Shown here: positions 139-51,413 of the stretch, piece by piece | Layout: each line of letters begins with the position of its first letter | How positions within the stretch are numbered: the stretch's first letter is position 1 | Virus record (IMG/VR): IMGVR_UViG_2848092901_000003 | Span: 1-64,000 of that record | Source of the DNA: a virus | Taxonomy: Duplodnaviria > Caudoviricetes | Length of the DNA: 64,000 nt | Strand: one strand, 5' to 3' | Made by a program: the position numbers and the translations under genes | Notes under the pieces: generated by a model | Database searches by the model: none | The model's input: the letters and a program-made list of their open reading frames with translations, nothing else | What the model was told of the DNA's origin: nothing

Positions 139-552
139 TTAGCATATCATCATTTCAATATAAATCAATTTCACTTTCCCCAGATACGTCTCTTGAAGAA
201 GCTTCAGCGCATCGATGTTATCGCCCTCAATGTAGATATTCTCTGTATCGATGCTACCGGGTGTTCCGTCTCTGCCGACAGACTTCTCCCTGTCAAGGCG
301 CAAGGTCTTAGCAATAGGTTGGTTGGCAAGTACCACCGATTTCTTTTTATCCGGCCATGTGAACTGGTAGCGTTCCTGCGCTCCCTCGACCACAGCCGCA
401 GAGATTTCCTGGCGCAGCACGTCCGCATCAATTGCACGGACAACCTCACCGTCCTCATTTATTGTTTCGGTCACGGCGTTTGGGAACATCGCGGCAAGTT
501 TCCTGAAATTCTCCTCCGCCAGATCGGGTGTATGCATCTTAAGATTCTCCAT
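139..552 (-). pseudogene. mod: Type III R-M Mod methyltransferase, 5' fragment interrupted at IYID(PPY)
   Basis: Mod N-terminus (ERYQFTWPDKK, NIYIEGDNIDALKLLQETYLGKVKLIYI) followed by EMMIC-stop instead of DPPY; very AT-rich unrelated DNA follows. Confidence 0.88.
143..160 (-). other. Putative att-like junction of a further element inserted in mod
   Basis: Minus strand TATTGA|AATGATGATATG; compositional break at 155; an RBS (AAGGAG) at the window edge points to a gene further left. Confidence 0.6.
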
Positions 553-1171
553 GTTTCAAATCCTCCAGTTCCTGTTTATAGCCACGAAGGCGTGTATAAA
601 GTTCAAATTGTTTCTTCGGCTGTTGCTCCTTCCAGGCAGCAGCCTCAGTCTTTGCTATCAGCTTCTCCAGTTTCAGTATTTGCTCCTGTAGAGCAAGGCG
701 TTCATCCACCGAAAGGGAAGCCGATTTTTCAGCCCGCTCATCATAAAGAGCAATCTGTTCCACAAAAGCCTCCCATATCTCATCGAGGGAGAAGCCCTGA
801 GGTTTCAGGCTTATTTCTGAAGCGTCCATCCACTGTGTCCGATAAAGTTTGCTATGATAAAGGGCAAGCTGACGGCTATCCTCGAACATAAGCAGAAAGA
901 CCAGATTGTGAGGATTCTGCTTTGCAATCGCCTCTATTACTTTGCCATCAAACTCCTGCTTCTTTAAAGTTATCGACAGCAACAGTATTTCCTTTATCTC
1001 CGAATCCGTGTTCAGGTTCAGATTATCTTTTGTGAGGCTGTTCTCTATAACAATCCTTTCCACATCGGACACGAACTTGTCCTTCAGCGCTTTTGTCAGT
1101 GGCAGATGCTTGTAGAACGCCTCTTTCGGCAAACGACGGTGAACCGCCGTTGCAGTAGGAAAATCAATCAT
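539..1171 (-). CDS. DUF4391 family protein
   Basis: RRLPKEAFYKH and EAFVEQIAL motifs, coiled-coil C-terminus (KEQQPKKQFELY); lies between SNF2 and mod. Confidence 0.8.
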   Translation of the reverse strand: MIDFPTATAVHRRLPKEAFYKHLPLTKALKDKFVSDVERIVIENSLTKDNLNLNTDSEIKEILLLSITLKKQEFDGKVIEAIAKQNPHNLVFLLMFEDSRQLALYHSKLYRTQWMDASEISLKPQGFSLDEIWEAFVEQIALYDERAEKSASLSVDERLALQEQILKLEKLIAKTEAAAWKEQQPKKQFELYTRLRGYKQELEDLKHGES

Positions 1172-4100
1172 CTCTAATCACCACCATAAAGCATATCAGT
1201 TCAAAATCATCCAATCCTGAAAAACCACCGGACAGAAATGTGGTCTGACCGCCTCTAAAGAAACTGTCAATGTCTCCCTCATCCTTTGCATCAATGATCG
1301 ACATGATAGCATCCTCCAATAGCTGGGAAACCTTGCTCATGTTTTTGCCATTGTTTGTGGCTTTATTGAATTGCTTGCACAACACTTTGTCCGGCACAGC
1401 CTTTCCACGAGAGAGGTGACGCATCACATCGAGTGTATCCTTCGGCTGTAAATGGTTTGTAATAACCTCGCCGTCCATGCCGACGTACACCATATAGAAC
1501 GGATGCAGCCTATTCTGATTCTGAATATTGATGTGTTCGTTAATATTCTTCAGTACGAAAATCACGCCAGGCTTTTCGCCCTTTACTACGGCATGAATTC
1601 CGAATGGTGTGTGATCGATATTTCCATGCTCCTTCATGTAGGCGAGCAGGTCCATACGGAACTCATTCAAGCCTAAATCCATAATGGAAACACCGCTGGT
1701 CATATCTTCCAAGTCAACCACTTCCTCCTGGAGCTTCTTTAACTGGCTGCGGCGATATTCGAGGTCGCCTTTTTCTTCCTGATTGATAAGGTCATCATCG
1801 CCGGTTGAAGTCATAACGGAAATACGCATCCTTGTCTCAACCCTGGACTTGAGGTTGATGTATTCGTCCAAATCCAAATCAGGCCAAAAGTTCACAAGCT
1901 GAATCACAGCATTTCTGCTGCCGATACGGTCGATACGTCCGAATCGCTGAATAATGCGGACGGGATTCCAATGGATATCATAGTTGATGCAAAAATCGCA
2001 GTCCTGCAAGTTTTGTCCTTCCGAAATGCAGTCAGTGGCAATGAGAATATCAATCTCGGTCTTGTCATTCGGATACAGAACGTCTCTATCCTTGGACATC
2101 GGAGAAAAGCAGGAAAGCACGTGGTTCATATCTGCTTTAAACTTCGGAATTGTAGTCTTGCCATCCACCGAGCCGGTCACGAGCGCAGTATGTAAGCCCA
2201 ACTCATCCCTTGCCATACCGCTGATGTTGTCGAAGAGGTACTCGGCGGTATCGGAGAAGGCGGTAAAAATCAACACTTTCCGATTACCTTCGTTAATCGG
2301 GGCAGCCACCTTTTCACGGATAACACGAATGAGTTCGTTTAGCTTGAAATCGTACTCCGGCGTAATATCTTCCACCATGAGTATCAAAAGCTGGAGATTC
2401 TCAATATCCTCGTCAATATCGCGCTTCCACGAGATGTAATCCATATCCCGCAGGTCAATCTTGACTTTCTTTCCCACGCTGAAGAAATCCGTGTTCTGGT
2501 CATCATAGTCAAAATCATCCGCTACAGCAGAGAGATCGCGCATCTCATCAAGGTCTCCCGTGCCGTCCATCATGAACTGTTCGATAGCCTGCGAAGTGTC
2601 ATACAGATAATCATAAATGCGGCGCACGGTCAGAAGAAACGAATGAACAGAACTTTCCATGCGCTTTAAGAGATTAATGCTCATTAAACGCTGGATACCA
2701 AGTTCACGGCCTTTGCGGAAGTTCTCCGATTCCTTCTCGTCCAGATACTTGTGCAGTTTACTGGCATGAATATAAATAGTCGGCGTATATATCGTCAGCT
2801 GCAGTTTCGACAGCAGCTCGAACACTTCTTTGTAATTTATCGCTCCCGGACGGTCAGTCAATTTCGGTCTTAGCGAGATTGGCTTGTTCCTTGCTGGGAA
2901 TGTACCGATATCTGTAACATCATAATAATTCTGTATATGCTTCCTCGATCGAGCAATCGTTACGCTGTCCAGCACCTCGAAGAAGTCAAAATCAAGCTGT
3001 GAAAGTAACGTGGCAGTTGTCCGTTCACTCTCCGGCAATTTGCACCATGCATTATAGACCTTCTGCGCCTGGCGGAAGATGGTATCGATATCTGACTTTG
3101 TATTCAGCTTCTCATTGAATTCGGATGGATCGCCCTCATAGGCAAGCGCCAGCTGGTTACGTAGGTCGTAAAAACGATTGTTTACCGGTGTCGCCGAAAG
3201 CATCAGCACTTTAGTCTTTACACCTGGTTTTATGACTCGGTTCATCAGCCGCATATAGCGATTTTCCTTTTCTCCGCCACGGCTGTCTGTTCCGTTTCCG
3301 TTACGGAAATTGTGGCTCTCATCAATAACGACCAAATCATAATTTCCCCAATTGATACGGTCAATCGGCAGACCAATCACGGTATTGCCGCTGTCTCTGG
3401 AAAGGTCGGTATGATACAGAATGTCATACCGAAGCCTGTCTGCGGCAAGTGGATTGTTAATGAGGTTTCCGCGATAGGTCATCCAGTTCTCTGACAGCTT
3501 TTTCGGGCAGAGAACGAGGACATTCTTATTGCGACCCTCGTAGTATTTGATAACGGCAAGTGCAGTGAAGGTCTTGCCAAGACCAACGCTGTCCGCAAGA
3601 ATACAACCGCTATATTGTTCCAGTTTATTGATAATAGCAAGGGCGGCATCTTTCTGAAAGTTGAACAGCTTGTTCCAAATAACGCTGTCCTTAAAGCCTG
3701 TAGCCTCATTTGGAAGAACATCATCAGAAATATCCTCCAGAAATTCGCTGAAAATGTTGTAGATAGTCATAAAATAGACTAATTCCGGCGCATTTTCCTG
3801 GTAGACTGTGGAGATCATTTCGATGACTTCTTCCGTAACATCGGTCAGTTTATCTTCGTCACTCCAAACGGAATCGAACATTCGTAAGAATTCTGCACTT
3901 GCTGGATTCTCTATGCGGGTAACCATATTTGTCAGATTGTTCCCGCGTTCACAGCCGAGGTCAACAGTCGTGAAAGTGTTCATCGGCATATAGGTATAGG
4001 CGTCCTCCGCTCCGTCCACGAGCAGGAAGTTATTCATTCCTTCGCGGGTAGTGTTAGTCTTAAAACGTACCTTACGGCGCATCCATTCCGCACATTCCTT

Positions 4101-4403
4101 TGCAACGGCCTTCTGCTTAAGTTCATTACGCAGACGGACCTCAAATTCTGTACCATACAGGCTCTTTTCTCTTTTGAGACGGGGAATATAAAATTCACGA
4201 CGTTCCTTCTGCGTTTTCTCCGCAACAAAAGTCGGCGAAGTGAATATGAATCGCAGTTCCTTGCAATCCTCAAGCTGACTCTTCAATTCCTGGTATGCAT
4301 ATATCGAAAAGCAAGCTGCCGCTATAGAGATACGACTGCCTTGCCGTATAGTTTTTTCAAGATCGTCCTTGACTACTTTAGTGGTGTTATTAAAAATCTC
4401 CAC
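1164..4403 (-). CDS. SNF2-family helicase with N-terminal PLD-like domain
   Basis: DSVGLGKT Walker A, VVIDESH, SATP, EGQNLQ and QRFGRIDRIG motifs; GTG start at 4403 chosen from the GGAGG RBS. Confidence 0.88.
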   Translation of the reverse strand: MEIFNNTTKVVKDDLEKTIRQGSRISIAAACFSIYAYQELKSQLEDCKELRFIFTSPTFVAEKTQKERREFYIPRLKREKSLYGTEFEVRLRNELKQKAVAKECAEWMRRKVRFKTNTTREGMNNFLLVDGAEDAYTYMPMNTFTTVDLGCERGNNLTNMVTRIENPASAEFLRMFDSVWSDEDKLTDVTEEVIEMISTVYQENAPELVYFMTIYNIFSEFLEDISDDVLPNEATGFKDSVIWNKLFNFQKDAALAIINKLEQYSGCILADSVGLGKTFTALAVIKYYEGRNKNVLVLCPKKLSENWMTYRGNLINNPLAADRLRYDILYHTDLSRDSGNTVIGLPIDRINWGNYDLVVIDESHNFRNGNGTDSRGGEKENRYMRLMNRVIKPGVKTKVLMLSATPVNNRFYDLRNQLALAYEGDPSEFNEKLNTKSDIDTIFRQAQKVYNAWCKLPESERTTATLLSQLDFDFFEVLDSVTIARSRKHIQNYYDVTDIGTFPARNKPISLRPKLTDRPGAINYKEVFELLSKLQLTIYTPTIYIHASKLHKYLDEKESENFRKGRELGIQRLMSINLLKRMESSVHSFLLTVRRIYDYLYDTSQAIEQFMMDGTGDLDEMRDLSAVADDFDYDDQNTDFFSVGKKVKIDLRDMDYISWKRDIDEDIENLQLLILMVEDITPEYDFKLNELIRVIREKVAAPINEGNRKVLIFTAFSDTAEYLFDNISGMARDELGLHTALVTGSVDGKTTIPKFKADMNHVLSCFSPMSKDRDVLYPNDKTEIDILIATDCISEGQNLQDCDFCINYDIHWNPVRIIQRFGRIDRIGSRNAVIQLVNFWPDLDLDEYINLKSRVETRMRISVMTSTGDDDLINQEEKGDLEYRRSQLKKLQEEVVDLEDMTSGVSIMDLGLNEFRMDLLAYMKEHGNIDHTPFGIHAVVKGEKPGVIFVLKNINEHINIQNQNRLHPFYMVYVGMDGEVITNHLQPKDTLDVMRHLSRGKAVPDKVLCKQFNKATNNGKNMSKVSQLLEDAIMSIIDAKDEGDIDSFFRGGQTTFLSGGFSGLDDFELICFMVVIRDD

Positions 4404-4427
4404 AAGCGCACCCTCCTCCAACGGCTG

Positions 4428-4689: not shown

Positions 4690-6516
4690 TTACTTCACAT
4701 CATTTAGGAATCCATATCGTGTTCCCGGAATCAATCCTTTGCCGAAGGTTTCAACGACCGCACCATGCTTCTCATATTCAAGGGAAGGGATATGGTCAAG
4801 GTTCTCGATAATAATAAGCTGACCCTCATCCTGATGATTCATGAAGTAGCGGTAAAGCCCAGCTCTCATGCTATCCGGCATCCTGTCATCCACTCCATCA
4901 TCAAAGCCATGAAGTGGAGTATCAATGATAAAGATGTGAGGATCGAATTTAGCGTTTAGCGCCAGATATTTCCGTAGCATCATAATCATCACTGTATTAA
5001 GGTAAGAACGATAACCTTTACCGTGGCTCGTTCCTTTATCCTCACCATTTACCTCAATATCAAATGTTGTAAAATTAAAGTGCGCCTGAAGTAAACCGGA
5101 ATAATTGCATTCCTTAAGAATGGAATTGGCATATTCAGACATCGTGGTGGCAAAATCATCCCCAAAGTAGTCCTTGGGATGATACTCTAAAGTCTTATCA
5201 TTTTTCTGCTCGTTTTCTAAAGCAGTCAGATCGTTTCCAAAGTCCGTGGCATAGGCTTCAATCAATGCAATCTCACTGGCAATTCGGAGATATGCCTTGT
5301 AAGCATTGACTGTGTTTTGTTGCTCACTTTCCTGGGGACGTAGTTCTGTTTTAATTTTAGATTCGAGAGCATCACGCTGCCGCTTTAACTCGACAAGTTC
5401 GGCCCTGATTTCTTTCTTACGATCCTCGACATCTCTCTCCGTATCCTCAAGGCCGGAAAGTTGGGCCATCGTCCGCTCCATCTCTACTTTGGACGCAGCA
5501 ATATAGGATATCCGCTTACGAGGAGTAATCGTTCCTTCGCAGTATGGACATTTGGTGGCTTGTGGAACTTCCTGATAGGCTTCTTCGCCCTCGACAATGA
5601 GAGAAAGCCGTTGAATATCAGCTTTATACTGCGCAGCAAGTCTGTGGTATCTCGTCAAAAGAACATCGCACTCCGCAGCTCGTTCCTCTGCTTCCAGAAT
5701 GGAAGAGAGGATTTTTTGGCTCTCTGCAAGGGCACAGTCGATTTTTCTCTGTGTTTCCTGTAGGGCAGCAGTCGCTTGAGCTATCTGCGCTTCGACATCT
5801 GCGTCATCAAAAATATGCAAATCTTGTTCAAGCTGCTCCTTGCGTTCCGCAGCATCCCGGATTTTCCGATTGACATACTCGGCTACAGCCTTTCGGCGCG
5901 CTTTCTTTATTTCCTTTTTCTCTTGGGCATCTGTCTCTGTAAAAGTCCTGCCGGTAATTAGATACAAAAGTGCCGACAAAAACAGCGTATTCTCCATGTA
6001 ACGATGTTTTGGTTCTACGATAGAGTCGATATCATCAATCCGGTTTTCATCCAAATAAAATACACGCAGCAAATTGCGCCAGGTGAGTCGCTTCTTTTCA
6101 AACCTTGCGTTCGTTATAATCATGGTTTCTTGTTCAATGCCAATGAGCTTCAGCCATACTTCGTTCAGAGGCGGATTCTTAGCTCCCTTTCGGTAATTGA
6201 CATCATAGGTACCACTGTCTATACCGTCTATGGTGCTGGTCACCTCTACCTGATTCTTTCCCACATTTCTATGAAGAGCGACTTCGCCATCACGGTCATT
6301 TGATTCGACAATCATGGTCACGCCGTCATATTTTGCCGTTTCCTTAAACGGCTTGTCCACGGAGCCACCGAAGATAAAGTCAATACAATTCGCCACGCAG
6401 GTCTTTCCACTGTCAGAGCGTCCCTGTATGATGGTCAGTCCTTTACCGAAGGAAACGCTGGCATCGCCCTTGGTGGCGCTTTTCGCTATAACTTTTTTGA
6501 TGTAAAATCCTGCCAT
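4690..6516 (-). CDS. lmuB: SMC/Rad50-like ABC ATPase (Lamassu LmuB-like / ABC-three-component ATPase)
   Basis: Walker A GRSDSGKT, long coiled coil with CPYC hook, SHGKG signature, IFIIDTP Walker B. Confidence 0.8.
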   Translation of the reverse strand: MAGFYIKKVIAKSATKGDASVSFGKGLTIIQGRSDSGKTCVANCIDFIFGGSVDKPFKETAKYDGVTMIVESNDRDGEVALHRNVGKNQVEVTSTIDGIDSGTYDVNYRKGAKNPPLNEVWLKLIGIEQETMIITNARFEKKRLTWRNLLRVFYLDENRIDDIDSIVEPKHRYMENTLFLSALLYLITGRTFTETDAQEKKEIKKARRKAVAEYVNRKIRDAAERKEQLEQDLHIFDDADVEAQIAQATAALQETQRKIDCALAESQKILSSILEAEERAAECDVLLTRYHRLAAQYKADIQRLSLIVEGEEAYQEVPQATKCPYCEGTITPRKRISYIAASKVEMERTMAQLSGLEDTERDVEDRKKEIRAELVELKRQRDALESKIKTELRPQESEQQNTVNAYKAYLRIASEIALIEAYATDFGNDLTALENEQKNDKTLEYHPKDYFGDDFATTMSEYANSILKECNYSGLLQAHFNFTTFDIEVNGEDKGTSHGKGYRSYLNTVMIMMLRKYLALNAKFDPHIFIIDTPLHGFDDGVDDRMPDSMRAGLYRYFMNHQDEGQLIIIENLDHIPSLEYEKHGAVVETFGKGLIPGTRYGFLNDVK

Positions 6517-6520
6517 TGCG

Positions 6521-6970
6521 TTACCTCCTTAAAGATTTCGTTGACTGTCGACTGATTTCGTTGAACAACTGGACATCGCTATAGTTCCCATACTTCTCAA
6601 TCACAAGCCGCATCAGCTCTTTATACCGCTTGGCATATTCTGATTGGAAACCCTCACTCATGTTTCTTCCACTTTCCGAAACAGAATAAAGGATACCTGT
6701 TTCATCATCCGTGGCTATAACCAGTCCATCAACTACCAGATTCTTTATTGCAGTTTTTGTAAGGCTCCGCCTTGCGGATAGTTCGCTAAATGCAAAGCCA
6801 TTCTCCCCATTTAAAGACTTATCCGCAACACCGAAATCCTCACAGTAAATCGTTATGAAATCATAAGCGGTAATTCTGTCGAGTGTAATTTCGGCATTCG
6901 CCACATCAAGAAGAAGTACCACGTGGAGAGACAGTTCAAAGGGGGTATTGAAAAGTCTGTTATTCATCAA
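6521..6970 (-). CDS. lmuC: ABC-three-component middle component (LmuC-like)
   Basis: FNTPFELSLHV and LDRITAYDFITIY motifs, about 150 aa, directly upstream of the ATPase. Confidence 0.72.
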   Translation of the reverse strand: MMNNRLFNTPFELSLHVVLLLDVANAEITLDRITAYDFITIYCEDFGVADKSLNGENGFAFSELSARRSLTKTAIKNLVVDGLVIATDDETGILYSVSESGRNMSEGFQSEYAKRYKELMRLVIEKYGNYSDVQLFNEISRQSTKSLRR

Positions 6971-7937
6971 TGTTCACCCACGACTCAATCACGCCGTCAT
7001 TCACCAATATGTGGCAAATGCCTTTCTTCTCCAAATTGCCGATCAGATTCCGCATTTGGCTGAGTACGGAACTGTCGAGTGTGGTGCTTGTTATTTTTTC
7101 AAGGACAGCATTCAGCCTTGCGTAACCATCCTCGTAATCCTTCCAATATGTAGTATTGATGCCGTGCCATGCATCATCCTTCAGTCTGCCGAACTCATCC
7201 TCTCCGTCATCGAAGATATCCCGGACAGATCGTTCAATACTTACCGCACTGTAATATGCCATGCGCTGTTCCTTGTAGTTCTCTGCATATCGTTTCGGAA
7301 GGGAAGGAACATCGTCAGCAGTAAAAGTCTCCTTGTTTAATTTCTGAGCATACGCCTCATACAAGGCGCGAATGTAATCCAGTTCATGCTTGCCTACATC
7401 ATCAGGGACAAGCGTCTGATGAATCGTTATGACCTCACCGGATATATGTAATTTATCGCCTCTGCGCTCAATTGTCGCAGGGGCTATATTTTTTAGACTC
7501 CTTCCGGTCTCCATGCGCTGGTAATTCAACGCAGTTACATCATCGGACAGTCCCTCGGAACGGCGTCTAATGATCTGAGCAAGGATATTAGCACAGGCCT
7601 GCCCAACCTCGGAAGGCTCGACATCAAAGCTAAACTCAGCCAGCTTGTCCTTCATGTGGTTCAAGGCATCAAAGGAGTATGTATTTACGAAATCAGCAAA
7701 CTTTGCCTCGTCCAGTCGAGGCGTAAGTGCAGACGCCTTTTTCTGTGAAATTGGAAGTCTGCCACTGTAATATGCCTCCAGTGTAGATTTTCCAAGCTCA
7801 TAGAGGGGATTCGGAGAAGCTTTTTCCAATGCCTCATCATCCAGGATGGCATCCGTCAGAATCTTCACAAATTCTGCGGCGTTCATTTTTGTTTCGTAAT
7901 TATGATGCATGAACTGTACAAGGTCGCAGAACTTCAA
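6960..7937 (-). CDS. ABC-three-component CTD protein (LmuA-like) with N-terminal helical/HTH-like domain
   Basis: C-terminal ELDYIRALYEAY, EQRMAYYSA, DGYARL and KKGICHILVND..W motifs; TTG start at 7937 behind AAAGGAGG. Confidence 0.7.
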   Translation of the reverse strand: MKFCDLVQFMHHNYETKMNAAEFVKILTDAILDDEALEKASPNPLYELGKSTLEAYYSGRLPISQKKASALTPRLDEAKFADFVNTYSFDALNHMKDKLAEFSFDVEPSEVGQACANILAQIIRRRSEGLSDDVTALNYQRMETGRSLKNIAPATIERRGDKLHISGEVITIHQTLVPDDVGKHELDYIRALYEAYAQKLNKETFTADDVPSLPKRYAENYKEQRMAYYSAVSIERSVRDIFDDGEDEFGRLKDDAWHGINTTYWKDYEDGYARLNAVLEKITSTTLDSSVLSQMRNLIGNLEKKGICHILVNDGVIESWVNIDE

Positions 7938-7956
7938 GTTGACACCCTCCTTTCCA

Positions 7957-7994
7957 ATGTAGGCATTTATGTAGGCAGATGTAGGCAAACCTAC
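7957..7994. repeat. Three ATGTAGGCA direct repeats plus GTAGG-N4-CCTAC palindrome; putative operator
   Basis: Copies at 7957, 7969 and 7979; palindrome 7981-7994; just upstream of the RBS of the leftward operon. Confidence 0.75.
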
Positions 7995-8046
7995 GAGTTT
8001 TGGAAGTCCTATTTTCTATAATGAAATCGTGATAAGGCAGAAGGAG

Positions 8047-8061
8047 CGCACAGTCTGTGCG
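8047..8061. promoter_or_regulatory. Perfect palindrome CGCACAG-T-CTGTGCG; putative operator
   Basis: Direct reading; downstream of the leftward -10 in the divergent intergenic region. Confidence 0.5.
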
Positions 8062-8083
8062 AAATCCAAAACGCCTCATATCA

Positions 8084-8113
8084 CATTATACCACGAGCAA
8101 ACGCGATAATCAA
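8084..8113 (-). promoter_or_regulatory. SigA-type promoter for the leftward defence operon
   Basis: TTGATT (8113-8108), 17 bp spacer, extended -10 TGGTATAAT (8093-8085). Confidence 0.75.
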
Positions 8114-8280
8114 TATAAATTTGTGAACGCAAAACTTATTTTCAAAATAAAGCTATTGATTTGCGTTTGCGAGTGGTGCAATCCCGCCTGACACCGCATC
8201 AGCTGATCACTGATGGCTCAACGGTATCCGGCGGCACAACTCAATATCACAGCTGCCTTTTGAGCGGGTTAGCTGCAATC

Positions 8281-8379
8281 CGAAACGGAGAACTCCGTTA
8301 GGACTGCGGTTAGGTCTTGCACCCTTTTTGCGGCAGCGCCCAGAGTCCTCCGTTTCGAGAAATCGACAAATGGAGGACT
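8281..8379 (+). promoter_or_regulatory. Structured 5' leader with mutually exclusive pairings around the RBS
   Basis: AGTCCTCC (8344-8351) pairs with GGAGGACT (8372-8379); 8281-8295 matches the reverse complement of 8343-8357 at 14/15. Confidence 0.6.
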
Positions 8380-8384
8380 TTTTT

Positions 8385-8897
8385 ATGAAAACCAATGAAA
8401 ATCAGACCACATCAACCATCTACTACCGTCCGCTCAAGCAGTGGATCGAGGTCACCCCGGAACAGAAGCGGGACTGGGAGCGGTTCGTAGGGACTACCCG
8501 CAAGGCGAAGCAGAGAGCCGGAGCCTGCTGCATTCCGTACAAAAAAAGCTACAAATGCGACGGCCTCTGCGATACCTGCGAGTTCCGCTGTATCCCGAAG
8601 GACGCTCCCCAGCATCTTTCCATCGACACTGAGATGGAGAACGCCTACGAAAACGGCGTCTCCCGTACCAGCTTTCTTGCGGACAGCAAACTGACCACGG
8701 AGATCGATATCGACGCCCTGATTCTGAACGGCCTGCTTACGGAGCTTCAGTCATCCGACCCGGAAAGCTACGAGATCCTCATGGCAATTGCGGACGGGCT
8801 TTCCGAACGCGCCGGCGCAGAGCGGCTGCAGATGCCCCGGAACACCTTTGTGTATAAGCGCAATCAGCTGCTGAAGCGGCTCAAGGAAAAATTCTAA
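8385..8897 (+). CDS. Phage sigma-70 region-4-like regulator with Cys-rich motif
   Basis: CCxxxxxxxxCDGLCDTC; C-terminal HTH GLSERAGAERLQMPRNTFVYKRNQLLKRL; first gene of the rightward operon. Confidence 0.7.
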   Translation: MKTNENQTTSTIYYRPLKQWIEVTPEQKRDWERFVGTTRKAKQRAGACCIPYKKSYKCDGLCDTCEFRCIPKDAPQHLSIDTEMENAYENGVSRTSFLADSKLTTEIDIDALILNGLLTELQSSDPESYEILMAIADGLSERAGAERLQMPRNTFVYKRNQLLKRLKEKF

Positions 8898-8902
8898 AAA
8901 TC

Positions 8903-8938
8903 TTTCGGCCAACTCCTCCTTTCCCGTCCAGATGGGTC
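8903..8938 (+). promoter_or_regulatory. Bipartite motif TTTCGGCCAA-N13-GTCCAGATGGGTC, copy 1
   Basis: Identical boxes and spacing recur at 46408-46443. Confidence 0.7.
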
Positions 8939-9209: not shown

Positions 9210-9450
9210 CTGGCTGACGAAGATGTTCAGCGGAGAGCAACCGGCAGAGGATGCTCCCGTTTCTCCTCCTGAACCGGAACTGACGCTGGAGCAGGTCAGG
9301 GCCGTGCTTGCGGACAAATCCCGCCAGGGACACACCGCCGAGATCCGCACCCTGCTTCAAAAGTACGGTGCGTCCAAGCTGTCACAGATCGACCCTGCAC
9401 ACTATAAGGCGTTACTCGCCGAAGCGGAGGAATTGGCAGATGGCAACTAA
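9133..9450 (+). CDS. Conserved phage replication-module protein
   Basis: LTLEQVRAVLADKSRQGHTAEIRTLLQKYGASKLS motif; GGAGG RBS. Confidence 0.75.
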   Translation: MSRMSDMAQTIEDLRSAAAAISDAADWLTKMFSGEQPAEDAPVSPPEPELTLEQVRAVLADKSRQGHTAEIRTLLQKYGASKLSQIDPAHYKALLAEAEELADGN

Positions 9451-10567
9451 GCACGCAGTCTTATCCGCTTCTTCTTCTGAAAGGTGGCTCAACTGCCCGC
9501 CATCAGCAAGGCTGTGCGAAGCCTACGAGGACAAGGGCAGCGACTACGCCGCCGAGGGGACGGACGCCCATGCGCTCTGTGAGTTTCGGCTAAAGCAGAC
9601 TCTGGGGATTCCGGCAAACGATCCAATCGAAAACCTCACCTGGTACAACGAGGAGATGGAGGACTGCGCCGCCGTCTATGCCGCCTATGTGACAGAGCTT
9701 CTGGAGACCGCAAAGCAGACCTGCACCGACTCGGTCATCCTGATCGAGCAGCGAGTGGATTTCTCCCGCTGGGTACAGGACGGCTTCGGCACCGCCGACT
9801 GCATTGTCATCGCTGACGGTGAACTGAACATCGTGGACTATAAGCACGGCAAAGGCGTGGAGGTCAGCGCCGTGGATAATCCGCAGATGATGCTGTATGC
9901 CCTGGGTGCGCTGGAGATCTTTGACGGCATTTACGACATTGATACCGTCCGCATGACCATCTACCAGCCCCGGAAATCCAATATCAGTGTCTGCGTCATG
10001 GAAAAGGACAGTCTGCTCGAATGGGCGCAGAATGACCTGACCTATAAGGCAAAGCTGGCATACGAAGGTGGCGGTGATTTCCACTGCGGCGAGTGGTGCC
10101 GGTTCTGCAAGGCAAAGGCCGAATGCCGGGAACGAGCCGAAGCAAATCTGGCGCTTGTCCGGTACGACTTTGAGGAGCCACCCCTCCTGACCGATGAGGA
10201 GATCGCCGACATCCTGGATAAGGTGGACGCTCTTACCGCCTGGGCTGCGGACGTGAAGGAATACGCGCTCCAGCAGGCTGTCAGCGGCACGGTGTTCCCC
10301 GGATGGAAGCTGGTCGAGGGTCGCTCCAACCGCAAATACACCAGCGAATCCGCTGTAGCCGCAGCCGTTGAGGGCACAGGCTTTGACCCCTACGAAAAGA
10401 AACTGCTCGGCATCACCGCCATGCAGAAGCTGCTGGGAAAATCCCGCTTCGAGGAACTTCTTGCTCCCTACATCGAAAAGCCGCAAGGCCGGCCGGCGCT
10501 CGTGCGGTCGAGCGATAAACGGCCCGAATGGAATACCGCAAAAAATGATTTTATGGAGGAAATGTAA
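9440..10567 (+). CDS. DUF2800 family PD-(D/E)XK exonuclease
   Basis: HAVLSASSSERWLNCPPS, FGTADC, IVDYKHGKG, QMMLYALG, CRFCKAKAEC. Confidence 0.88.
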   Translation: MATKHAVLSASSSERWLNCPPSARLCEAYEDKGSDYAAEGTDAHALCEFRLKQTLGIPANDPIENLTWYNEEMEDCAAVYAAYVTELLETAKQTCTDSVILIEQRVDFSRWVQDGFGTADCIVIADGELNIVDYKHGKGVEVSAVDNPQMMLYALGALEIFDGIYDIDTVRMTIYQPRKSNISVCVMEKDSLLEWAQNDLTYKAKLAYEGGGDFHCGEWCRFCKAKAECRERAEANLALVRYDFEEPPLLTDEEIADILDKVDALTAWAADVKEYALQQAVSGTVFPGWKLVEGRSNRKYTSESAVAAAVEGTGFDPYEKKLLGITAMQKLLGKSRFEELLAPYIEKPQGRPALVRSSDKRPEWNTAKNDFMEEM

Positions 10568-46371: not shown

Positions 46372-46410
46372 GCCCATCGAGCCATAACGGTTCGGTGGGC
46401 GTATTTTTTT
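46372..46410 (+). terminator. Intrinsic terminator after the lysin
   Basis: GCCCATCGAGCC-N5-GGTTCGGTGGGC followed by T7. Confidence 0.8.
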
Positions 46411-46443
46411 CGGCCAAAATAGGCTTCTATGTCCAGATGGGTC
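46408..46443 (+). promoter_or_regulatory. Bipartite motif TTTCGGCCAA-N13-GTCCAGATGGGTC, copy 2
   Basis: Identical boxes and spacing to 8903-8938. Confidence 0.7.
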
Positions 46444-47068: not shown

Positions 47069-47111
47069 TTGGCTTTCAGAGTGATATATAGTGTCGGAAA
47101 GGAGTGATTTC

Positions 47112-48878
47112 ATGCGGATTGTAAATAAAATCGAAGCGAAAACACCGCAGATGCCGCGCCGCAAAAGGGTCGCTGCCTACGCAAGAGTCTCAATGGAGTC
47201 CGAGCGGCTGCAGCACTCCCTTTCGGCACAGGTCAGCTTTTACAGCAGTTTGATACAGAGCAACCCCGCCTGGGAATATGTGGGCGTATACGCCGACAAC
47301 GGAATAACCGGCACCAAAGCCGAAGCCCGCGAAGAGTTCAATCGGATGATTGCCGACTGCGAAGCCGGAAAAATCGACATTGTTCTGACAAAGAGTATCT
47401 CCCGTTTCGCGCGCAACACCGTTGACCTGTTGAATACAGTGCGCAGGCTCAAGGAACTGGGCGTTTCCGTGCAATTTGAAAAGGAGCGCATCGACTCCCT
47501 CACCGAGGACGGTGAGTTGATGCTGACCCTTTTAGCATCCTTTGCCCAGGAGGAGATACGCAGCCTGTCGGACAACGTCAAATGGGGTACCCGGAAACGA
47601 TTTGAAAAAGGTATTCCCAATGGTCGCTTTCAAATCTACGGGTACCGCTGGGAGGGCGATCATCTGGTTGTCCATGAGGAGGAGGCAAAGATCGTTCGGC
47701 TCATCTACGACAATTACATGAATGGTTTATCAGCGGAAACCACAGAGAAGCAGCTTGCCGAGATGGGTGTGAAATCCTATAAGGGCCAGCACTTCGGCAA
47801 TACCTCTATCAGACAGATCCTCGGCAACATCACTTATACGGGCAACCTTCTGTTCCAGAAGGAATATGTGCAGGACCCCATCAGCAAGAAAAGCAAAATT
47901 AACCGTGGGGAGCTGCCGCAGTATTTCGTGAAGAACACCCACGAAGCCATCATCCCGATGGAGGTCTACCAGGCGGTGCAGACCGAGAAAGCGCGCCGCC
48001 GGGAGCTTGGGGCTTTGGCAAACTGGAGCATCAATACCTCCTGCTTTACCAGCAAAATCAAGTGCGGTCGGTGCGGAAAGAGCTATCAGCGCTCCAACCG
48101 CAAGGGACGAAAAGATCCTGACGCTAACTACACCATCTGGGTCTGCGGGACTCGAAGAAAAACCGGGAATGCCAAGTGCCAAAACAAGGACATCCCAGAA
48201 CAGATACTCAAGGAAGCCTGCGCTGTGGTCATGGGACTGGATACGTTTGATGAGATCATCTTTTCAGAGCAGATCGACCGCATTGAGATCCCTGCTCCGA
48301 ATGAGATGATTTTCTATTTTAAGGATGGCCACATTGTACCGCACCACTGGGAATCCACCATGCGGAAGGACTGCTGGACGGATGAGCGCAGAGCCGCCAA
48401 GGGACGGTATGTGCAGGAGCATCAGCTCGGCCCCAACACTTCCTGCTTTACCAGCCGCATTCGCTGCGACAGCTGCGGCGAGAACTACCGCAGGCAGCGT
48501 TCACGGCACAAAGATGGCAGCTTTGATTCCGTATGGCGATGTGCGTCAGGCGGAAAATGCCAAAGCCCCAGCATCAAGGAAGATGCCCTCAAAAACCTCT
48601 GTGCGGACGCTATGGGTCTGGAGGAATTTAGTGAGACGGTTTTCCGTGAGCAGATTGTCTGCATTCACATCACGGCTCCATATCAGCTTTCCATCCGCTT
48701 CTTTGACGGGCATACCTTCGAGACGGCATGGGAAAACAAGCGGAAGATGCCCCGGCATACAGAGGAGCGAAAACAGCATATGCGAGAAGTAATGATACAG
48801 AGATGGAGGGAAAAACGTGGCGAAAGTAACGACAATACCGGCGACGATAAGCCGATTCACGGCAACGCCGATCAATGA
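47112..48878 (+). CDS. Large serine recombinase 1 with duplicated Zn-ribbon module
   Basis: AAYARVS, KSISRFARN, NITYTGNLLFQK, HEAII; two NTSCFTSxIxC repeats. Confidence 0.93.
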   Translation: MRIVNKIEAKTPQMPRRKRVAAYARVSMESERLQHSLSAQVSFYSSLIQSNPAWEYVGVYADNGITGTKAEAREEFNRMIADCEAGKIDIVLTKSISRFARNTVDLLNTVRRLKELGVSVQFEKERIDSLTEDGELMLTLLASFAQEEIRSLSDNVKWGTRKRFEKGIPNGRFQIYGYRWEGDHLVVHEEEAKIVRLIYDNYMNGLSAETTEKQLAEMGVKSYKGQHFGNTSIRQILGNITYTGNLLFQKEYVQDPISKKSKINRGELPQYFVKNTHEAIIPMEVYQAVQTEKARRRELGALANWSINTSCFTSKIKCGRCGKSYQRSNRKGRKDPDANYTIWVCGTRRKTGNAKCQNKDIPEQILKEACAVVMGLDTFDEIIFSEQIDRIEIPAPNEMIFYFKDGHIVPHHWESTMRKDCWTDERRAAKGRYVQEHQLGPNTSCFTSRIRCDSCGENYRRQRSRHKDGSFDSVWRCASGGKCQSPSIKEDALKNLCADAMGLEEFSETVFREQIVCIHITAPYQLSIRFFDGHTFETAWENKRKMPRHTEERKQHMREVMIQRWREKRGESNDNTGDDKPIHGNADQ

Positions 48879-50388
48879 AAAGAAAAAGCGCCGCACCGCC
48901 GCCTACGCCCGTGTTTCCACGGACAGCGAGGAGCAGCTCACCAGCTACAGCGCCCAGGTGGACTATTACACCAACTATATCAAAAGCCGGGACGATTGGG
49001 AGTTTGTTTCCGTGTATACGGACGAGGGCATAACGGGTACGAATACCAAGCACCGCGAGGGATTCAAACGCATGGTGGCGGATGCACTGGCTGGCAAGAT
49101 AGACCTCATCGTCACCAAATCGGTCAGCCGCTTTGCCCGAAATACGGTAGACAGCCTGACCACGGTGCGCCAGCTCAAGGAAAAAGGCGTGGAGATCTAT
49201 TTTGAGAAAGAAAACATCTGGACCTTGGACAGCAAGGGCGAACTGCTCATCACCATCATGTCCTCACTGGCGCAGGAGGAAAGCCGCAGCATTTCAGAGA
49301 ACTGTACCTGGGGACAGAGAAAACGGTTTGCTGACGGGAAGGTCACCGTGCCATTCAAACGGTTTCTCGGCTATGATCGGGGACCCGATGGCAATCTGGT
49401 TTTGAATAAGGACGAAGCGGTTATCATCCGCCGCATTTACAGTATGTTCCTGCAAGGCATGACGCCGCACGGCATTGCCGCCAGGCTAACCGCTGACGGC
49501 ATTAAATCGCCGGGCGGCAAGGATAAATGGAACGCCGGAGCGGTTCGGAGTATCCTCACTAACGAAAAATATAAGGGTGATGCACTTCTTCAGAAAAGCT
49601 ATACGGTTGATTTCCTCACCAAAAAGAAAAAGGTCAACGAGGGCGAAATTCCGCAGTATTATGTGGAGGGCAACCACGAAGCCATCATTTCCCCAGAGGT
49701 ATTCGAGATGGTTCAGCAGGAAATGGAACGGCGCAGCAAGCGCGGTAGACGAAGCGGTGTCCACCTTTTCTCCGGCAAAATTCGCTGTGGCGAATGCGGA
49801 AGCTGGTACGGCTCCAAAACCTGGCACTCCAATGATAAGTACAAAAAGATCATCTGGCAGTGCAATCACAAATTTGATGGCGACCACAAATGCACCACAC
49901 CACACCTTACAAATGAAGATATCCACCGCTACTTTATTTCGGCAGTCAACCAGCTTCTTGCCCAGAAGGATACCATCATCGCATCCTTGACCGGCGGCTT
50001 GGCCCTTGCCTTTGACCTCACGCCTCTGCAAGCCCAAGAAACTGCACTGATTGAGGAAGTACAGATGCTTGCCGATGCGGTTGAAAAGTGCATCTACGAA
50101 AATGCTCATGTGGCCCTTGACCAGACAGAATACCAGAAACGCTATGACGGACTGGTCCACCGCTACGATGAAGCTAAAGTCAAACTGGGTGCCATCACCG
50201 AGCAGATCGCCGATAAAAAGGCACGGAGAGGCACTATTGAGGAGTTCCTCAAGGTTCTCCGGGAGCAGGACGGACTGGTCACCGATTTTCAAACAAACCT
50301 CTGGTGCGGACTGGTGGATTTTATGACCGTCTACTCCGCAGACGATGTGCGGATCACCTTCAAAAACGGTGCGGAAATAAAGGCATAA
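48817..50388 (+). CDS. Large serine recombinase 2
   Basis: AAYARVSTD, KSVSRFARN, NEKYKGDALLQK, CGECG, WQCNHK. Confidence 0.95.
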   Translation: MAKVTTIPATISRFTATPINEKKKRRTAAYARVSTDSEEQLTSYSAQVDYYTNYIKSRDDWEFVSVYTDEGITGTNTKHREGFKRMVADALAGKIDLIVTKSVSRFARNTVDSLTTVRQLKEKGVEIYFEKENIWTLDSKGELLITIMSSLAQEESRSISENCTWGQRKRFADGKVTVPFKRFLGYDRGPDGNLVLNKDEAVIIRRIYSMFLQGMTPHGIAARLTADGIKSPGGKDKWNAGAVRSILTNEKYKGDALLQKSYTVDFLTKKKKVNEGEIPQYYVEGNHEAIISPEVFEMVQQEMERRSKRGRRSGVHLFSGKIRCGECGSWYGSKTWHSNDKYKKIIWQCNHKFDGDHKCTTPHLTNEDIHRYFISAVNQLLAQKDTIIASLTGGLALAFDLTPLQAQETALIEEVQMLADAVEKCIYENAHVALDQTEYQKRYDGLVHRYDEAKVKLGAITEQIADKKARRGTIEEFLKVLREQDGLVTDFQTNLWCGLVDFMTVYSADDVRITFKNGAEIKA

Positions 50389-50456: not shown

Positions 50457-51413
50457 TTAGTCATCCCAAAACATTCTGCTGGGAAGAAAATAGGTTTCAA
50501 ATTTCCTGGAAAGTCCTAGAATTCCAAATACATCTTTAAGTCTTTTTTTATCGTCTTCACTATAATAATAAATAATCCATTTTGATGTTGGCTTTATTTC
50601 TTCAGCAATTCGCAAGAGATAAGGAGTGTCTACATTCCCAAACGACAAACCTATGGATACTACTTGCTCTATATCTTTTAGACTTGAAAAAAACGATTCA
50701 TTTCTCGATATAATTGCATCCGTGTCTTTATATAATGACGAGCAAAATTTTGCTATCGCGGAGCATATACTTTCTTCCCATTCTACGAACTCTTCACTTG
50801 CACACTGTGCTCTTCGTTTGTAATAATCTATAATAAATTTATTTCCATGCCCCATGATGGGTGGTATTGCAGAGCATGATGGTACTCCTCCATGCAAGTG
50901 AAGAACTGTTTTTACCCCATATACCCGCTCTAGGACATCTGTATAATTAAAATTAATGAAAATATCAGAACAATTTCCTATGAAACTCTTTTTAATGGGG
51001 CACACACCTGATGTATCTATAGACTCTAACCACTCAAGTACATATTTCTGTAAATCTGAAGAAAACCCATACTGTTCCTTCCAGTGAAGATCCAGAGTAT
51101 ATTTTATACCTTCTTCTGGCATTTGCTCTGCAAGGGAACTTGCCATATCGTGCATTCCTTCTACATCTGGGTTACCCATTTCTTCCTCAAATGTTTGCCA
51201 TAAATCTTTTAGCACTGATTTTTTCCATCTTTCTTGTGCCGCTTCAGTGTACCAAGGCTCTGTATCATCTAAAGGCTGAATGTTATACATAGCCTCAAAA
51301 TCCGTTAGAAATGACTCATGATGCGTTTCTAAGAAACTTCTGAACTCAGAATATGGAGTTCTAATACCATGCTGTATGTCGAAACCGTTTCCTACCAAAT
51401 ACAATGTTTTCAT
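50457..51413 (-). CDS. abiH: AbiH-family abortive infection protein
   Basis: LYLVGNGFDIQHGIRTPYSEF N-terminus; FNYT; HLHG; IGLSFGNVDTPY. Confidence 0.8.
   Translation of the reverse strand: MKTLYLVGNGFDIQHGIRTPYSEFRSFLETHHESFLTDFEAMYNIQPLDDTEPWYTEAAQERWKKSVLKDLWQTFEEEMGNPDVEGMHDMASSLAEQMPEEGIKYTLDLHWKEQYGFSSDLQKYVLEWLESIDTSGVCPIKKSFIGNCSDIFINFNYTDVLERVYGVKTVLHLHGGVPSCSAIPPIMGHGNKFIIDYYKRRAQCASEEFVEWEESICSAIAKFCSSLYKDTDAIISRNESFFSSLKDIEQVVSIGLSFGNVDTPYLLRIAEEIKPTSKWIIYYYSEDDKKRLKDVFGILGLSRKFETYFLPSRMFWDD

What the first reader, a model, noticed from the sequence alone, without database searches (positions are those of the whole stretch)
8281..8387. Three-state RNA switch controlling the RBS of the first lytic regulator
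Seen: segment B (8343-8357) can pair with the RBS (8-bp AGTCCTCC/GGAGGACT stem capped by TCGA-GAAA-TCGA) or with upstream segment A (8281-8295, 14/15 complementary). Segment A can instead fold on itself (AACGGAG-AA-CTCCGTT). Inference: anti-RBS / anti-anti-RBS logic gates translation of the sigma-like gene through a ligand, protein or antisense RNA. I do not recognise it as a known riboswitch.
Basis: partly seen in the sequence, partly recalled or inferred. Interest (0 to 1): 0.7.

Follow-up and report, generated by a model that had tools for sequence, protein, structure and literature searches.

The report
Known DUF2800 phage leader RNA switch
The flagged hairpins are real and conserved. They are the tail of an already catalogued but functionally unexplained phage leader RNA (Rfam "DUF2800 RNA"), plus a conserved hairpin that hides the ribosome-binding site of a small sigma-like regulator, so this is a known orphan RNA-switch candidate and not a new one.

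Summary
No dinucleotide shuffle of the region reaches 14/15 complementarity (0 of 300).

Its "segment A hairpin" is one of that motif's conserved hairpins. Segment B and the RBS arm form a conserved hairpin just 3' of the Rfam model (8342-8381). It buries the Shine-Dalgarno sequence, and in this window it is followed by six U, like an intrinsic terminator.

Across 48-129 relatives from gut Clostridia phages (Ca. Heliusvirales), the A:B pairing stays complementary and shows a few compensatory changes. A control pairing shows none.

There are two states, not three: hairpin A plus the lock hairpin (off), or A:B with a free RBS (on). At equilibrium the off state wins by about 17 kcal/mol. The trigger is unknown.

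The downstream protein has only a sigma region-4-like C-terminal domain.

This scan reached the same reading earlier on other DNA (e1-5468733, e1-5757986, e1-2410841). The thing is real and moderately interesting, but not new.

The parts
8184..8340 (+). DUF2800 RNA motif (Rfam RF02960), full length
   Evidence: cmscan gives 150.9 bits against a cut-off of 60.2, covering model positions 1-158. Blast matches to relatives begin exactly at 8184. The G-U pairs in the stems are valid only on the + strand.
8184..8234 (+). Hairpin 1 of the motif. It carries a 9-nt loop (8202-8210) that holds the self-complementary UGAUCA (8204-8209).
   Evidence: All 17 stem pairs covary. The loop core stays palindromic in relatives: GAUC, GGCC, AGCU, CGCG.
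8216..8265 (+). Long-range pseudoknot helix: GCUCAA (8216-8221) pairs with UUGAGC (8260-8265)
   Evidence: Paired in 96.9% of cells over 129 sequences. Four of the six pairs show double changes, e.g. GC/AU and UA/CG.
8284..8299 (+). Hairpin A, a conserved inner hairpin of the motif (model positions 102-115): 5-6 bp with a GAAC loop
   Evidence: Rfam consensus structure. 92-93% of cells are paired. The 3' arm varies mostly by G-U wobble while the 5' arm is nearly invariant.
8281..8295 (+). Segment A, the switch strand. It can pair with its own 3' arm or with segment B.
   Evidence: 14/15 complementary to B. 88.8% of cells are paired in relatives, against 31-60% when the partner is slid.
8343..8357 (+). 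Segment B, the anti-SD strand. It is the 5' arm of the lock hairpin and the alternative partner of segment A.
8342..8381 (+). Lock hairpin T: 13 bp plus a 4-bp cap with a GAAA loop. It buries the SD GGAGGA (8372-8377) and lies outside the Rfam model.
   Evidence: -22.5 kcal/mol, z = -5.9. 88.7-90.3% of cells are paired. Covariation at 8345/8378 (UA 50, GC 48) and at 8346/8377 (UA 114, AU 14).
8379..8384 (+). Run of six U directly after the lock hairpin (intrinsic-terminator-like), immediately before the start codon
   Evidence: Sequence. Four or more consecutive U follow the hairpin in 35 of 48 relatives. The simple terminator scan did not flag it, because the stem has an internal loop.
8385..8897 (+). 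Gated gene: a 170-aa protein with a Cys-rich middle and a C-terminal sigma-70 region-4-like HTH
   Evidence: phrog_13787. No Pfam hit for the window protein. Relatives hit Sigma70_r4_2; only L012 passes Pfam's own cut-off, at 37.4 bits. The C-terminal ~60 residues of the model superpose on SigF/SigD/SigE region 4 at rmsd 1.3-1.8.
8098..8182 (.). Divergent control region upstream of the leader. It holds operator-like TTTGYG/CGCAAA repeats (8098, 8120-8135, 8160-8173), a leftward promoter (8113-8085) and a possible rightward extended -10, TGgTGCAAT (8174-8182).
   Evidence: The palindrome TTTGCG-WW-CGCAAA recurs at the same place in about 10 relatives. The promoter assignment for the + strand is an inference.

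Best explanation
The finding is the 3' third of a DUF2800 RNA (Rfam RF02960) plus its expression platform, which lies outside the Rfam model. It sits in the leader of the first rightward gene of a Ca. Heliusvirales prophage of gut Clostridia.

The RNA has two mutually exclusive conformations.
- OFF: the two-domain, pseudoknotted motif is folded. Segment A is locked in its own hairpin. Segment B pairs with the Shine-Dalgarno arm to form a -22 kcal/mol hairpin. That hairpin hides the RBS and, followed by six U in this phage, should also terminate transcription at the start codon.
- ON: the 5' arm of hairpin A plus the CGA just before it pairs with B (10 bp, a conserved mismatch, then 4 bp). The lock hairpin cannot form, so polymerase reads through and the RBS is free.

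By nearest-neighbour energies the two folds are about equal when B has just been transcribed, but OFF wins by about 17 kcal/mol once the RBS arm exists. I therefore read it as an equilibrium-OFF, kinetically decided attenuator and translation lock. It gates a small regulator with a sigma region-4-like domain, and through it the DUF2800/SSB/PolA replication operon.

Shown: family membership, conservation of all three helices, and their mutual exclusivity. Inferred: that the helices actually switch, the direction of the switch, and termination. Unknown: the trigger. I favour a factor or RNA-RNA contact that appears on induction over a metabolite, but only weakly.
For: - Family membership: 150.9 bits over the full model. 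14 divergent relatives also score 95-140 bits.
- The platform is conserved even where the downstream coding sequence differs.
- A:B helix: 88.8% of cells paired against 31-60% for slid partners. 0 of 500 shuffles reach the observed pairing or covariation score.
- Compensatory change at 8283/8355: A-U to G-C in three sequences (two separate lineages on the tree), one G-U, none unpaired, with three state changes on the tree. Position 8283 lies outside hairpin A. In L010 and L182 the partner 8355 lies in the loop of the lock hairpin, so only A:B explains that pair.
- 8293/8345 reads CG 47, AU 42, with further UG, UA and GU. 8345 also covaries with 8378 in the lock hairpin (UA 50, GC 48).
- Control: the other formally possible pairing, the 3' arm of hairpin A with the RBS arm, shows no covariation. 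179 of 500 shuffles reach its pairing level.
- Strands with two partners (the 5' arm of A, and B) are nearly invariant. The strand with one partner (the 3' arm of A) drifts by wobble changes.
- Energetics: the A:B fold is equal or better at the truncated stage in 31 of 48 leaders (median -1.25 kcal/mol). The lock state is better by a median of 17.7 kcal/mol at full length.
- Contigs from RNA libraries of two studies bridge the motif, the lock hairpin and the coding sequence: 8125-8884, 8186-8470 and 8184-8536. This is weak, because DNA can be present in such libraries.
Against: - The core of A:B is almost invariant, so independent compensatory events are few. The phylogeny-aware test has only 3 well-supported independent contrasts (8 on all branches) and is not significant, p about 0.5.
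- The two large clades CGC and AUA dominate the 8293/8345/8378 signal.
- With the enclosing stems of the motif intact, A:B would be a pseudoknot, which the energy model cannot score. The energy comparison, and hence the default state, is therefore uncertain.
- 13 of 48 relatives lack a U-tract, so termination cannot be the family-wide mechanism.
- There is no ligand, no transcription start and no transcript 3' end. The window's best -10-like hexamer (8177-8182) would put the start a few bases inside the first stem, which does not fit.
- No experiment on this RNA family turned up in the library searched.
Confidence: 0.68

Rival explanations
1. Classical small-molecule riboswitch. The 157-nt DUF2800 motif is an aptamer for a host metabolite or second messenger. 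Ligand binding stabilises the pseudoknotted fold, including hairpin A, so the lock/terminator hairpin forms. Without ligand, A:B forms during transcription and the regulator is made. This shares the two-state platform with the best explanation and differs only in naming the trigger.
For: The fold is large and two-domain, with a covarying pseudoknot and many invariant unpaired nucleotides. It has a terminator/antiterminator platform that is nearly iso-energetic at the decision point, where a few kcal/mol of binding energy would decide the outcome. The leader stays the same while the upstream promoter module and the downstream protein vary. That argues against a partner encoded right next to it.
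Against: The regulated genes are phage regulators and replication genes, not enzymes or transporters that would hint at a ligand. The family was seen here only in phages and prophages of Clostridia. Rfam lists it only as Cis-reg, and no ligand appears in the papers I could search.
Confidence: 0.2
2. Static lock with no A:B switching. The B/RBS hairpin is a constitutive terminator and translation block. It is opened by something else, such as a helicase, processing, or a protein that binds the two look-alike hairpins. The complementarity of A and B is a by-product of hairpin A and the lock hairpin sharing one stem sequence, for example as two sites for one dimeric RNA-binding protein.
For: Hairpin A and the lock hairpin carry the same stem sequence in opposite order (AACGGAG/CTCCGTT), which alone yields most of the A:B complementarity. 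At equilibrium the lock state is far more stable. The phylogeny-aware test of A:B is not significant.
Against: A:B extends 3 bp beyond the shared stem (8281-8283 with 8355-8357), and one of those pairs shows A-U to G-C changes with no unpaired case. The symmetric by-product pairing (3' arm of A with the RBS arm) should look the same under this model, but it shows no covariation. L247 changed C-G to U-A in hairpin A, in B and in the RBS arm together.
Confidence: 0.1
3. Not an RNA element. The conservation reflects a DNA-level operator or palindromes, or a small protein-coding gene on either strand. One relative's record annotates a 33-codon minus-strand ORF over the motif.
For: The window has a 62-codon minus-strand ORF (8207-8395) and a 46-codon plus-strand ORF (8161-8301). 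PV036426 annotates a tiny hypothetical protein there. The loop UGAUCA is also a DNA palindrome.
Against: 25 of 51 structure pairs show double compensatory changes. The conserved G-U and U-G pairs in the middle stem (43 and 47 of 48 sequences) would be A-C mismatches on the other strand. The Rfam covariance model scores 150.9 bits. The plus-strand ORF starts in the non-conserved upstream region and has no SD.
Confidence: 0.02

Closest known systems
DUF2800 RNA motif, Rfam RF02960 (type Cis-reg). I attribute it from memory to the comparative survey of Weinberg et al. 2017, PMC5737381. The motif is not named in that paper's main text, and its supplements were not held.
   Same: Window 8184-8340 matches the whole model at 150.9 bits. 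All stems are present. It lies upstream of an operon that contains a DUF2800 (PF10926) gene at about 9308-10567, in a Firmicutes phage.
   Different: The finding extends 45 nt beyond the model. It adds the lock/terminator hairpin, the SD and the alternative A:B helix, which the covariance model does not include. The gene directly downstream is a sigma region-4-like regulator, not the DUF2800 gene itself. I could not check whether the original authors drew the terminator, the pseudoknot or the palindromic loop.
Terminator/antiterminator and SD-sequestering expression platforms of Firmicutes riboswitches (general knowledge of the class)
   Same: The helices are mutually exclusive. The switching strand belongs to the sensor domain. 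A GC-rich hairpin plus U-tract includes the SD in its 3' arm. The two folds are close in energy at the decision point.
   Different: No ligand is known. The switching strand is an inner hairpin rather than the closing helix of the sensor, so the ON helix may be a pseudoknot. The regulated gene is a phage regulator.
HIV-1 dimerisation initiation site: a 9-nt hairpin loop holding a 6-nt palindrome that forms a kissing dimer (from my own knowledge; a lead, not a test)
   Same: Hairpin 1 has a 9-nt loop with a 6-nt self-complementary UGAUCA flanked 2+1. The palindromic character is kept through GAUC, GGCC, AGCU and CGCG.
   Different: Dimerisation is untested here. The outer U-A pair is often lost (41 of 128 cells unpaired). 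There is no relation in sequence or biology.
Phage early-leader RNA devices such as lambda nut or HK022 put antitermination RNAs (general knowledge)
   Same: A structured RNA in an early phage transcript that decides whether downstream early or middle genes are expressed.
   Different: Those elements modify RNA polymerase to read through distant terminators. Here the evidence is for a local, self-contained alternative pairing that overlaps the RBS. No boxA/boxB features were seen and no Rfam hit other than RF02960.

Membership tests
Rfam RF02960 DUF2800 RNA | Covariance-model score at or above the curated gathering score, over the full model | tested here: met
   150.9 bits against 60.2, model positions 1-158 of 158, E = 1.8e-27
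Rfam RF02960 DUF2800 RNA | Consensus stems present and supported by compensatory changes among relatives | tested here: met
   87.9% of cells paired. 25 of 51 pairs have changes on both sides. 0 of 500 shuffles reach the observed values.
Rfam RF02960 DUF2800 RNA | Lies upstream of an operon with a DUF2800-domain gene in Firmicutes or their phages | tested here: met
   PF10926 at 519 bits in the ORF 9308-10567, followed by an Enc34-type SSB, PolA, VapE and SNF2. Relatives are Ca. Heliusvirales phages of Acutalibacteraceae and Christensenellales, and prophages in Oscillospiraceae, Lachnospiraceae and Butyricicoccus assemblies.
Riboswitch (ligand-sensing cis-regulatory RNA) | Conserved structured sensor domain joined to an expression platform with mutually exclusive helices | tested here: met
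   Support for the alternative helix is moderate (few independent events).
Riboswitch (ligand-sensing cis-regulatory RNA) | Direct, selective binding of a small molecule that changes the fold and gene expression | not testable with these tools
   No ligand is known, and the gene context gives no hint.
Intrinsic (Rho-independent) terminator | Stable GC-rich hairpin immediately followed by a U-tract | tested here: met
   Window: -22.5 kcal/mol hairpin followed by UUUUUU. In the family, 35 of 48 have four or more consecutive U. The simple scan did not list it, because the stem has an internal loop. Function is untested.
Sigma-70 family factor (for the gated gene) | Region 4 HTH (recognises the -35 element) | tested here: inconclusive
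   The window protein has no Pfam hit. Relatives hit Sigma70_r4_2, and only L012 passes the cut-off (37.4 bits against 25.7). The model's C-terminal ~60 residues superpose on region 4 of SigF, SigD and SigE (rmsd 1.3-1.8, TM to target 0.64-0.84), but the whole-protein E-values are 0.1 or higher, and LuxR-type HTHs match as well.
Sigma-70 family factor (for the gated gene) | Region 2 (core binding, -10 recognition) | tested here: not met
   No Pfam, NCBIfam or fold match for residues 1-100. That part is a beta-hairpin, a helix and a Cys-rich knuckle.

The most novel reading that the evidence does not exclude
The DUF2800 leader may be a self-associating RNA. Its 9-nt loop with a self-complementary core (GAUC, replaced by GGCC, AGCU or CGCG in relatives) would let two leaders kiss. 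The switch would then read the leader's own concentration and separate leaky prophage transcription from a true induction burst. Alternatively, the motif is an aptamer for an unidentified host signal that decides whether the most widespread temperate phage lineage of the human gut proceeds to replication. Either way an orphan RNA would become the commitment checkpoint of these phages.
Probability: 0.12. Interest if true: 0.8.

Novelty: new member of a known kind. Interest (0 to 1): 0.4.

Why it matters
Ca. Heliusvirales phages are reported in over 90% of people sampled (PMC9226167). Their first rightward gene is consistently preceded by this orphan RNA. If the two-state platform works as read here, it is the gate between prophage leakiness and the replication programme. 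It would also give a concrete assay for finding the trigger of an RNA family that has had no function since its description: termination and reporter read-out with compensatory mutants in 8281-8295, 8343-8357 and 8369-8381. For this scan the practical point is that the finding is a rediscovery. The same element has now been flagged and resolved several times on other DNA.

Tried and rejected
1. Permissive Rfam search of 7800-8600: only RF02960 and a chance snoRNA-like match at E = 0.61.
2. The simple promoter/terminator scan found no + strand promoter and did not list the lock hairpin. I could not place the transcription start. The best -10-like hexamer, TGCAAT at 8177-8182 with an upstream TG, would start transcription inside the first stem. 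This stays open.
3. Weinberg et al. 2017: the main text does not mention DUF2800 and no supplements are held. A full-text search for DUF2800 gave only protein-domain mentions.
5. Two loose DNA patterns returned mostly chance matches, which were filtered out with an HMM.
6. The phylogeny-aware independent-contrast test of 8345 against 8293 and 8378 was underpowered, with 3 supported contrasts and p of 0.25-0.5.
7. RNA-library contigs cannot show starts, ends or levels, so gaps in cover mean nothing and DNA carry-over cannot be excluded.
8. Leader-peptide attenuation rejected: the 46-codon ORF 8161-8301 starts in the non-conserved upstream region and has no SD.
9. The small co-directional gene just upstream of the motif in many relatives, tested as a possible protein partner: present in only 52 of 163 motif loci and absent from this window.
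10. The 59-codon ORF 7900-8079 as a hidden repressor: only a sub-threshold DUF4723 match and no HTH.
11. Pairing of hairpin A's 3' arm with the RBS arm as a third state: no covariation.
12. Foldseek of the gated protein against the PDB: no whole-protein match at E of 0.001 or better.

Full report
**1. The observation**

- Segment A, 8281-8295, reads CGAAACGGAGAACTC.
- Segment B, 8343-8357, reads GAGTCCTCCGTTTCG.
- They pair at 14 of 15 positions, with an A x C mismatch at 8291/8347.
- B also pairs with the Shine-Dalgarno arm. The minimum-energy hairpin runs from 8342 to 8381: 13 bp, an internal loop, and a 4-bp cap TCGA-GAAA-TCGA. It folds at -22.5 kcal/mol, z = -5.9.
- It is followed directly by six U (8379-8384) and the ATG at 8385.
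- No dinucleotide shuffle of 8184-8395 (0 of 300) holds a 15-mer pair with 14 or more complementary positions.
- One correction: the self-fold of A cannot have a 2-nt loop. It is a 5-6 bp hairpin with a GAAC tetraloop.

**2. What it is**

Rfam gives one hit in the whole 64-kb window: RF02960, DUF2800 RNA, at 8184-8340. The score is 150.9 bits against a gathering score of 60.2, over the full model.
- Segment B and the RBS arm lie just 3' of the model.
- So the finding is the tail of a catalogued cis-regulatory RNA candidate plus a part that the model does not cover.

The window is an IMG/VR provirus record. Its nearest annotated relative is Acutalibacteraceae phage NatCom_11578, classed as Ca. 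Heliusvirales.

The genes downstream fit that lineage. In order they are the 170-aa gene, two small genes, a DUF2800 nuclease-like gene, an Enc34-type SSB, PolA, VapE and an SNF2 helicase. This matches the signature genes listed for the lineage in PMC9226167.

**3. Relatives**

Pattern scans of viral, genome and metagenome collections were filtered with an HMM of the motif. They gave 163 loci and 129 distinct leader sequences. Fourteen of the most divergent ones all pass the Rfam cut-off, at 95-140 bits.

Conservation begins exactly at 8184. It continues through the lock hairpin to the start codon, even where the downstream coding sequence is different.

**4. Tests of the helices on the 48-sequence alignment A1**

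- *Motif plus lock hairpin:* 87.9% of cells are paired, 25 of 51 pairs change on both sides, and 0 of 500 shuffles reach this.
- *A:B helix:* 88.8% of cells are paired, against 31-60% for partners slid by 1-3 columns. Five pairs show double changes, and 0 of 500 shuffles reach the pairing or covariation score.

The most telling pair is 8283/8355: A-U in 125 sequences, G-C in 3, G-U in 1, and none unpaired. Position 8283 lies outside hairpin A. In L010 and L182 the partner lies in the loop of the lock hairpin. Only A:B explains that pair.

Other supporting changes:
- L247 changed C-G to U-A together in hairpin A, in B and in the RBS arm.
- 8293/8345 reads CG 47, AU 42, plus wobble types. 8345 also covaries with 8378 in the lock hairpin (UA 50, GC 48).

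As a control I counted the other formally possible pairing, the 3' arm of hairpin A with the RBS arm. It has no double change, and 179 of 500 shuffles reach its pairing level. The A:B signal is therefore not just a side effect of two look-alike hairpins.

The main caveat is that independent events are few. A tree-based contrast test has only three well-supported contrasts and is not significant.

**5. Energetics**

- At the moment B is complete (transcript ending at 8358), the predicted best fold of the window's leader is the A:B form: -62.9 kcal/mol, against -59.5 for the motif alone.
- Once the RBS arm is made, the motif plus lock hairpin wins, -82.0 against -64.5.
- Across 48 leaders, A:B is equal or better at the truncated stage in 31 (median -1.25 kcal/mol). 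The lock state is better by a median of 17.7 kcal/mol at full length.

These numbers ignore the pseudoknot described in section 7. They also ignore the possibility that A:B forms as a pseudoknot with the enclosing stems intact. The default state is therefore inferred, not shown.

35 of 48 leaders have four or more consecutive U after the hairpin. RBS sequestration is the family-wide feature, and termination is an added feature of most members, including this one.

**6. How it most likely works**

There are two states, not three.
- *OFF:* the motif is folded with hairpin A closed. B pairs with the SD arm, transcription stops at the start codon, and any read-through message is untranslatable.
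- *ON:* the 5' arm of hairpin A plus the preceding CGA captures B. No lock hairpin forms, so there is read-through and a free RBS.

The conserved mismatch 8291 x 8347 is unpaired in 120 of 129 sequences. It splits A:B into 10 + 4 bp. I take this as tuning that keeps the ON helix displaceable, which is an inference.

The trigger is unknown. Three observations bear on it:
- The upstream control module is swappable. Some relatives have a small co-directional gene plus a TGTC-N8-GACA palindrome. The window and about 10 others have a divergent promoter with TTTGCG-WW-CGCAAA palindromes.
- That small upstream protein is absent from the window and from two thirds of the loci.
- The gated protein varies in its N-terminal half.

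A partner encoded right beside the leader is therefore unlikely.

Contigs from RNA libraries of two chicken-gut studies bridge the motif, the lock hairpin and the coding sequence. This fits transcription through segment A, but it does not exclude DNA carry-over.

**7. Further anatomy seen here**

- *Pseudoknot.* GCUCAA in the internal loop of hairpin 1 (8216-8221) pairs with UUGAGC (8260-8265). 96.9% of cells are paired over 129 sequences, and four of the six pairs covary.
- *Self-complementary loop.* The 9-nt loop of hairpin 1 holds UGAUCA. Its 4-nt core is GAUC in most relatives, GGCC in 9, and AGCU and CGCG in one each. A handful are non-palindromic. It cannot pair within its own loop, so it suggests loop-loop dimerisation. 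That is untested.

**8. The gated gene**

The 170-aa protein has no Pfam or NCBIfam family and belongs to phrog_13787. Relatives in the same position are 129-222 aa. Several hit Sigma70_r4_2, and one does so above the cut-off.

An AlphaFold model (mean pLDDT 83.5) has a C-terminal helical domain that superposes on region 4 of SigF, SigD and SigE. There is no whole-protein match and no region 2. "Sigma-like" is thus half right.

A bipartite motif, TTTCGGCCAA-N13-GTCCAGATGGGTC, stands right after this gene (8903-8938) and again at 46408-46443, before the serine-recombinase genes. It is a candidate target promoter for the gated protein. This is an inference, and the lead came from note e1-5887793.

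**9. Comparison and novelty**

The element is a canonical member of RF02960. It works like a terminator/antiterminator riboswitch platform, but ligand binding, the defining feature of a riboswitch, cannot be tested here. No functional study of the family was found in the library.

Earlier follow-ups in this scan reached the same reading on other genomes (e1-5468733, e1-5757986, e1-2410841).

Verdict: real, conserved and mechanistically plausible, but a rediscovery. Interest is moderate because the family is still an orphan and sits at the entry to the lytic programme of a very widespread gut phage lineage.

Noticed in passing
window 8216-8221 with 8260-8265: A long-range pseudoknot helix inside the DUF2800 RNA (GCUCAA/UUGAGC). 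It covaries strongly (GC/AU, CG/UA, UA/CG, AU/GC) and is paired in 96.9% of cells over 129 sequences. It does not appear in the consensus-structure line printed for the Rfam model.
   Followed up: yes
window 8202-8210: The 9-nt loop of hairpin 1 holds the self-complementary UGAUCA. Relatives keep a palindromic 4-nt core (GAUC, GGCC, AGCU, CGCG). This suggests a kissing-loop homodimer of the leader RNA. A DNA-level palindrome is not excluded.
   Followed up: partly
window 8903-8938 and 46408-46443: An identical bipartite motif, TTTCGGCCAA-N13-GTCCAGATGGGTC, occurs twice. One copy is right after the sigma-like gene, ahead of the replication operon. The other is ahead of the two large serine-recombinase genes (47091-50388). 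It is also present in a relative (L185). It is a candidate promoter for the gated regulator.
   Followed up: partly
window 4690-7988, minus strand: The genes transcribed divergently from the leader encode an ABC-3C (Lamassu-type) defence system: an AAA_23 ATPase, Middle Component 2 and a CTD6 protein. No repressor-like gene was found next to the operator-like repeats. The 59-codon ORF 7900-8079 has no HTH.
   Followed up: partly
window 8098-8173: Operator-like repeats: CAAACGCGA, TTTGTGAACGCAAAAC and TTTGCGTTTGCGAG. About 10 relatives carry a near-perfect TTTGCG-WW-CGCAAA palindrome at the same distance from the leader. Other relatives instead have TGTC-N8-GACA behind a small co-directional gene. 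The control module upstream of the leader is swappable.
   Followed up: partly
window 539-4421 and 50457-51413: Further defence-type genes flank the prophage: DUF4391 plus a 1085-aa SNF2/ResIII helicase on the left, and AbiH on the right, just beyond the recombinases.
   Followed up: no
L142:6827-6874 (minus strand of the locus): A gut-2 RNA (RF02990, 51.3 bits) lies about 200 nt upstream of the DUF2800 RNA in one relative.
   Followed up: no
L133 (PV036426.1) 6115-6213: The deposited annotation of the related phage places a 33-codon hypothetical protein on the minus strand over the DUF2800 RNA. This is probably an annotation artefact.
   Followed up: no
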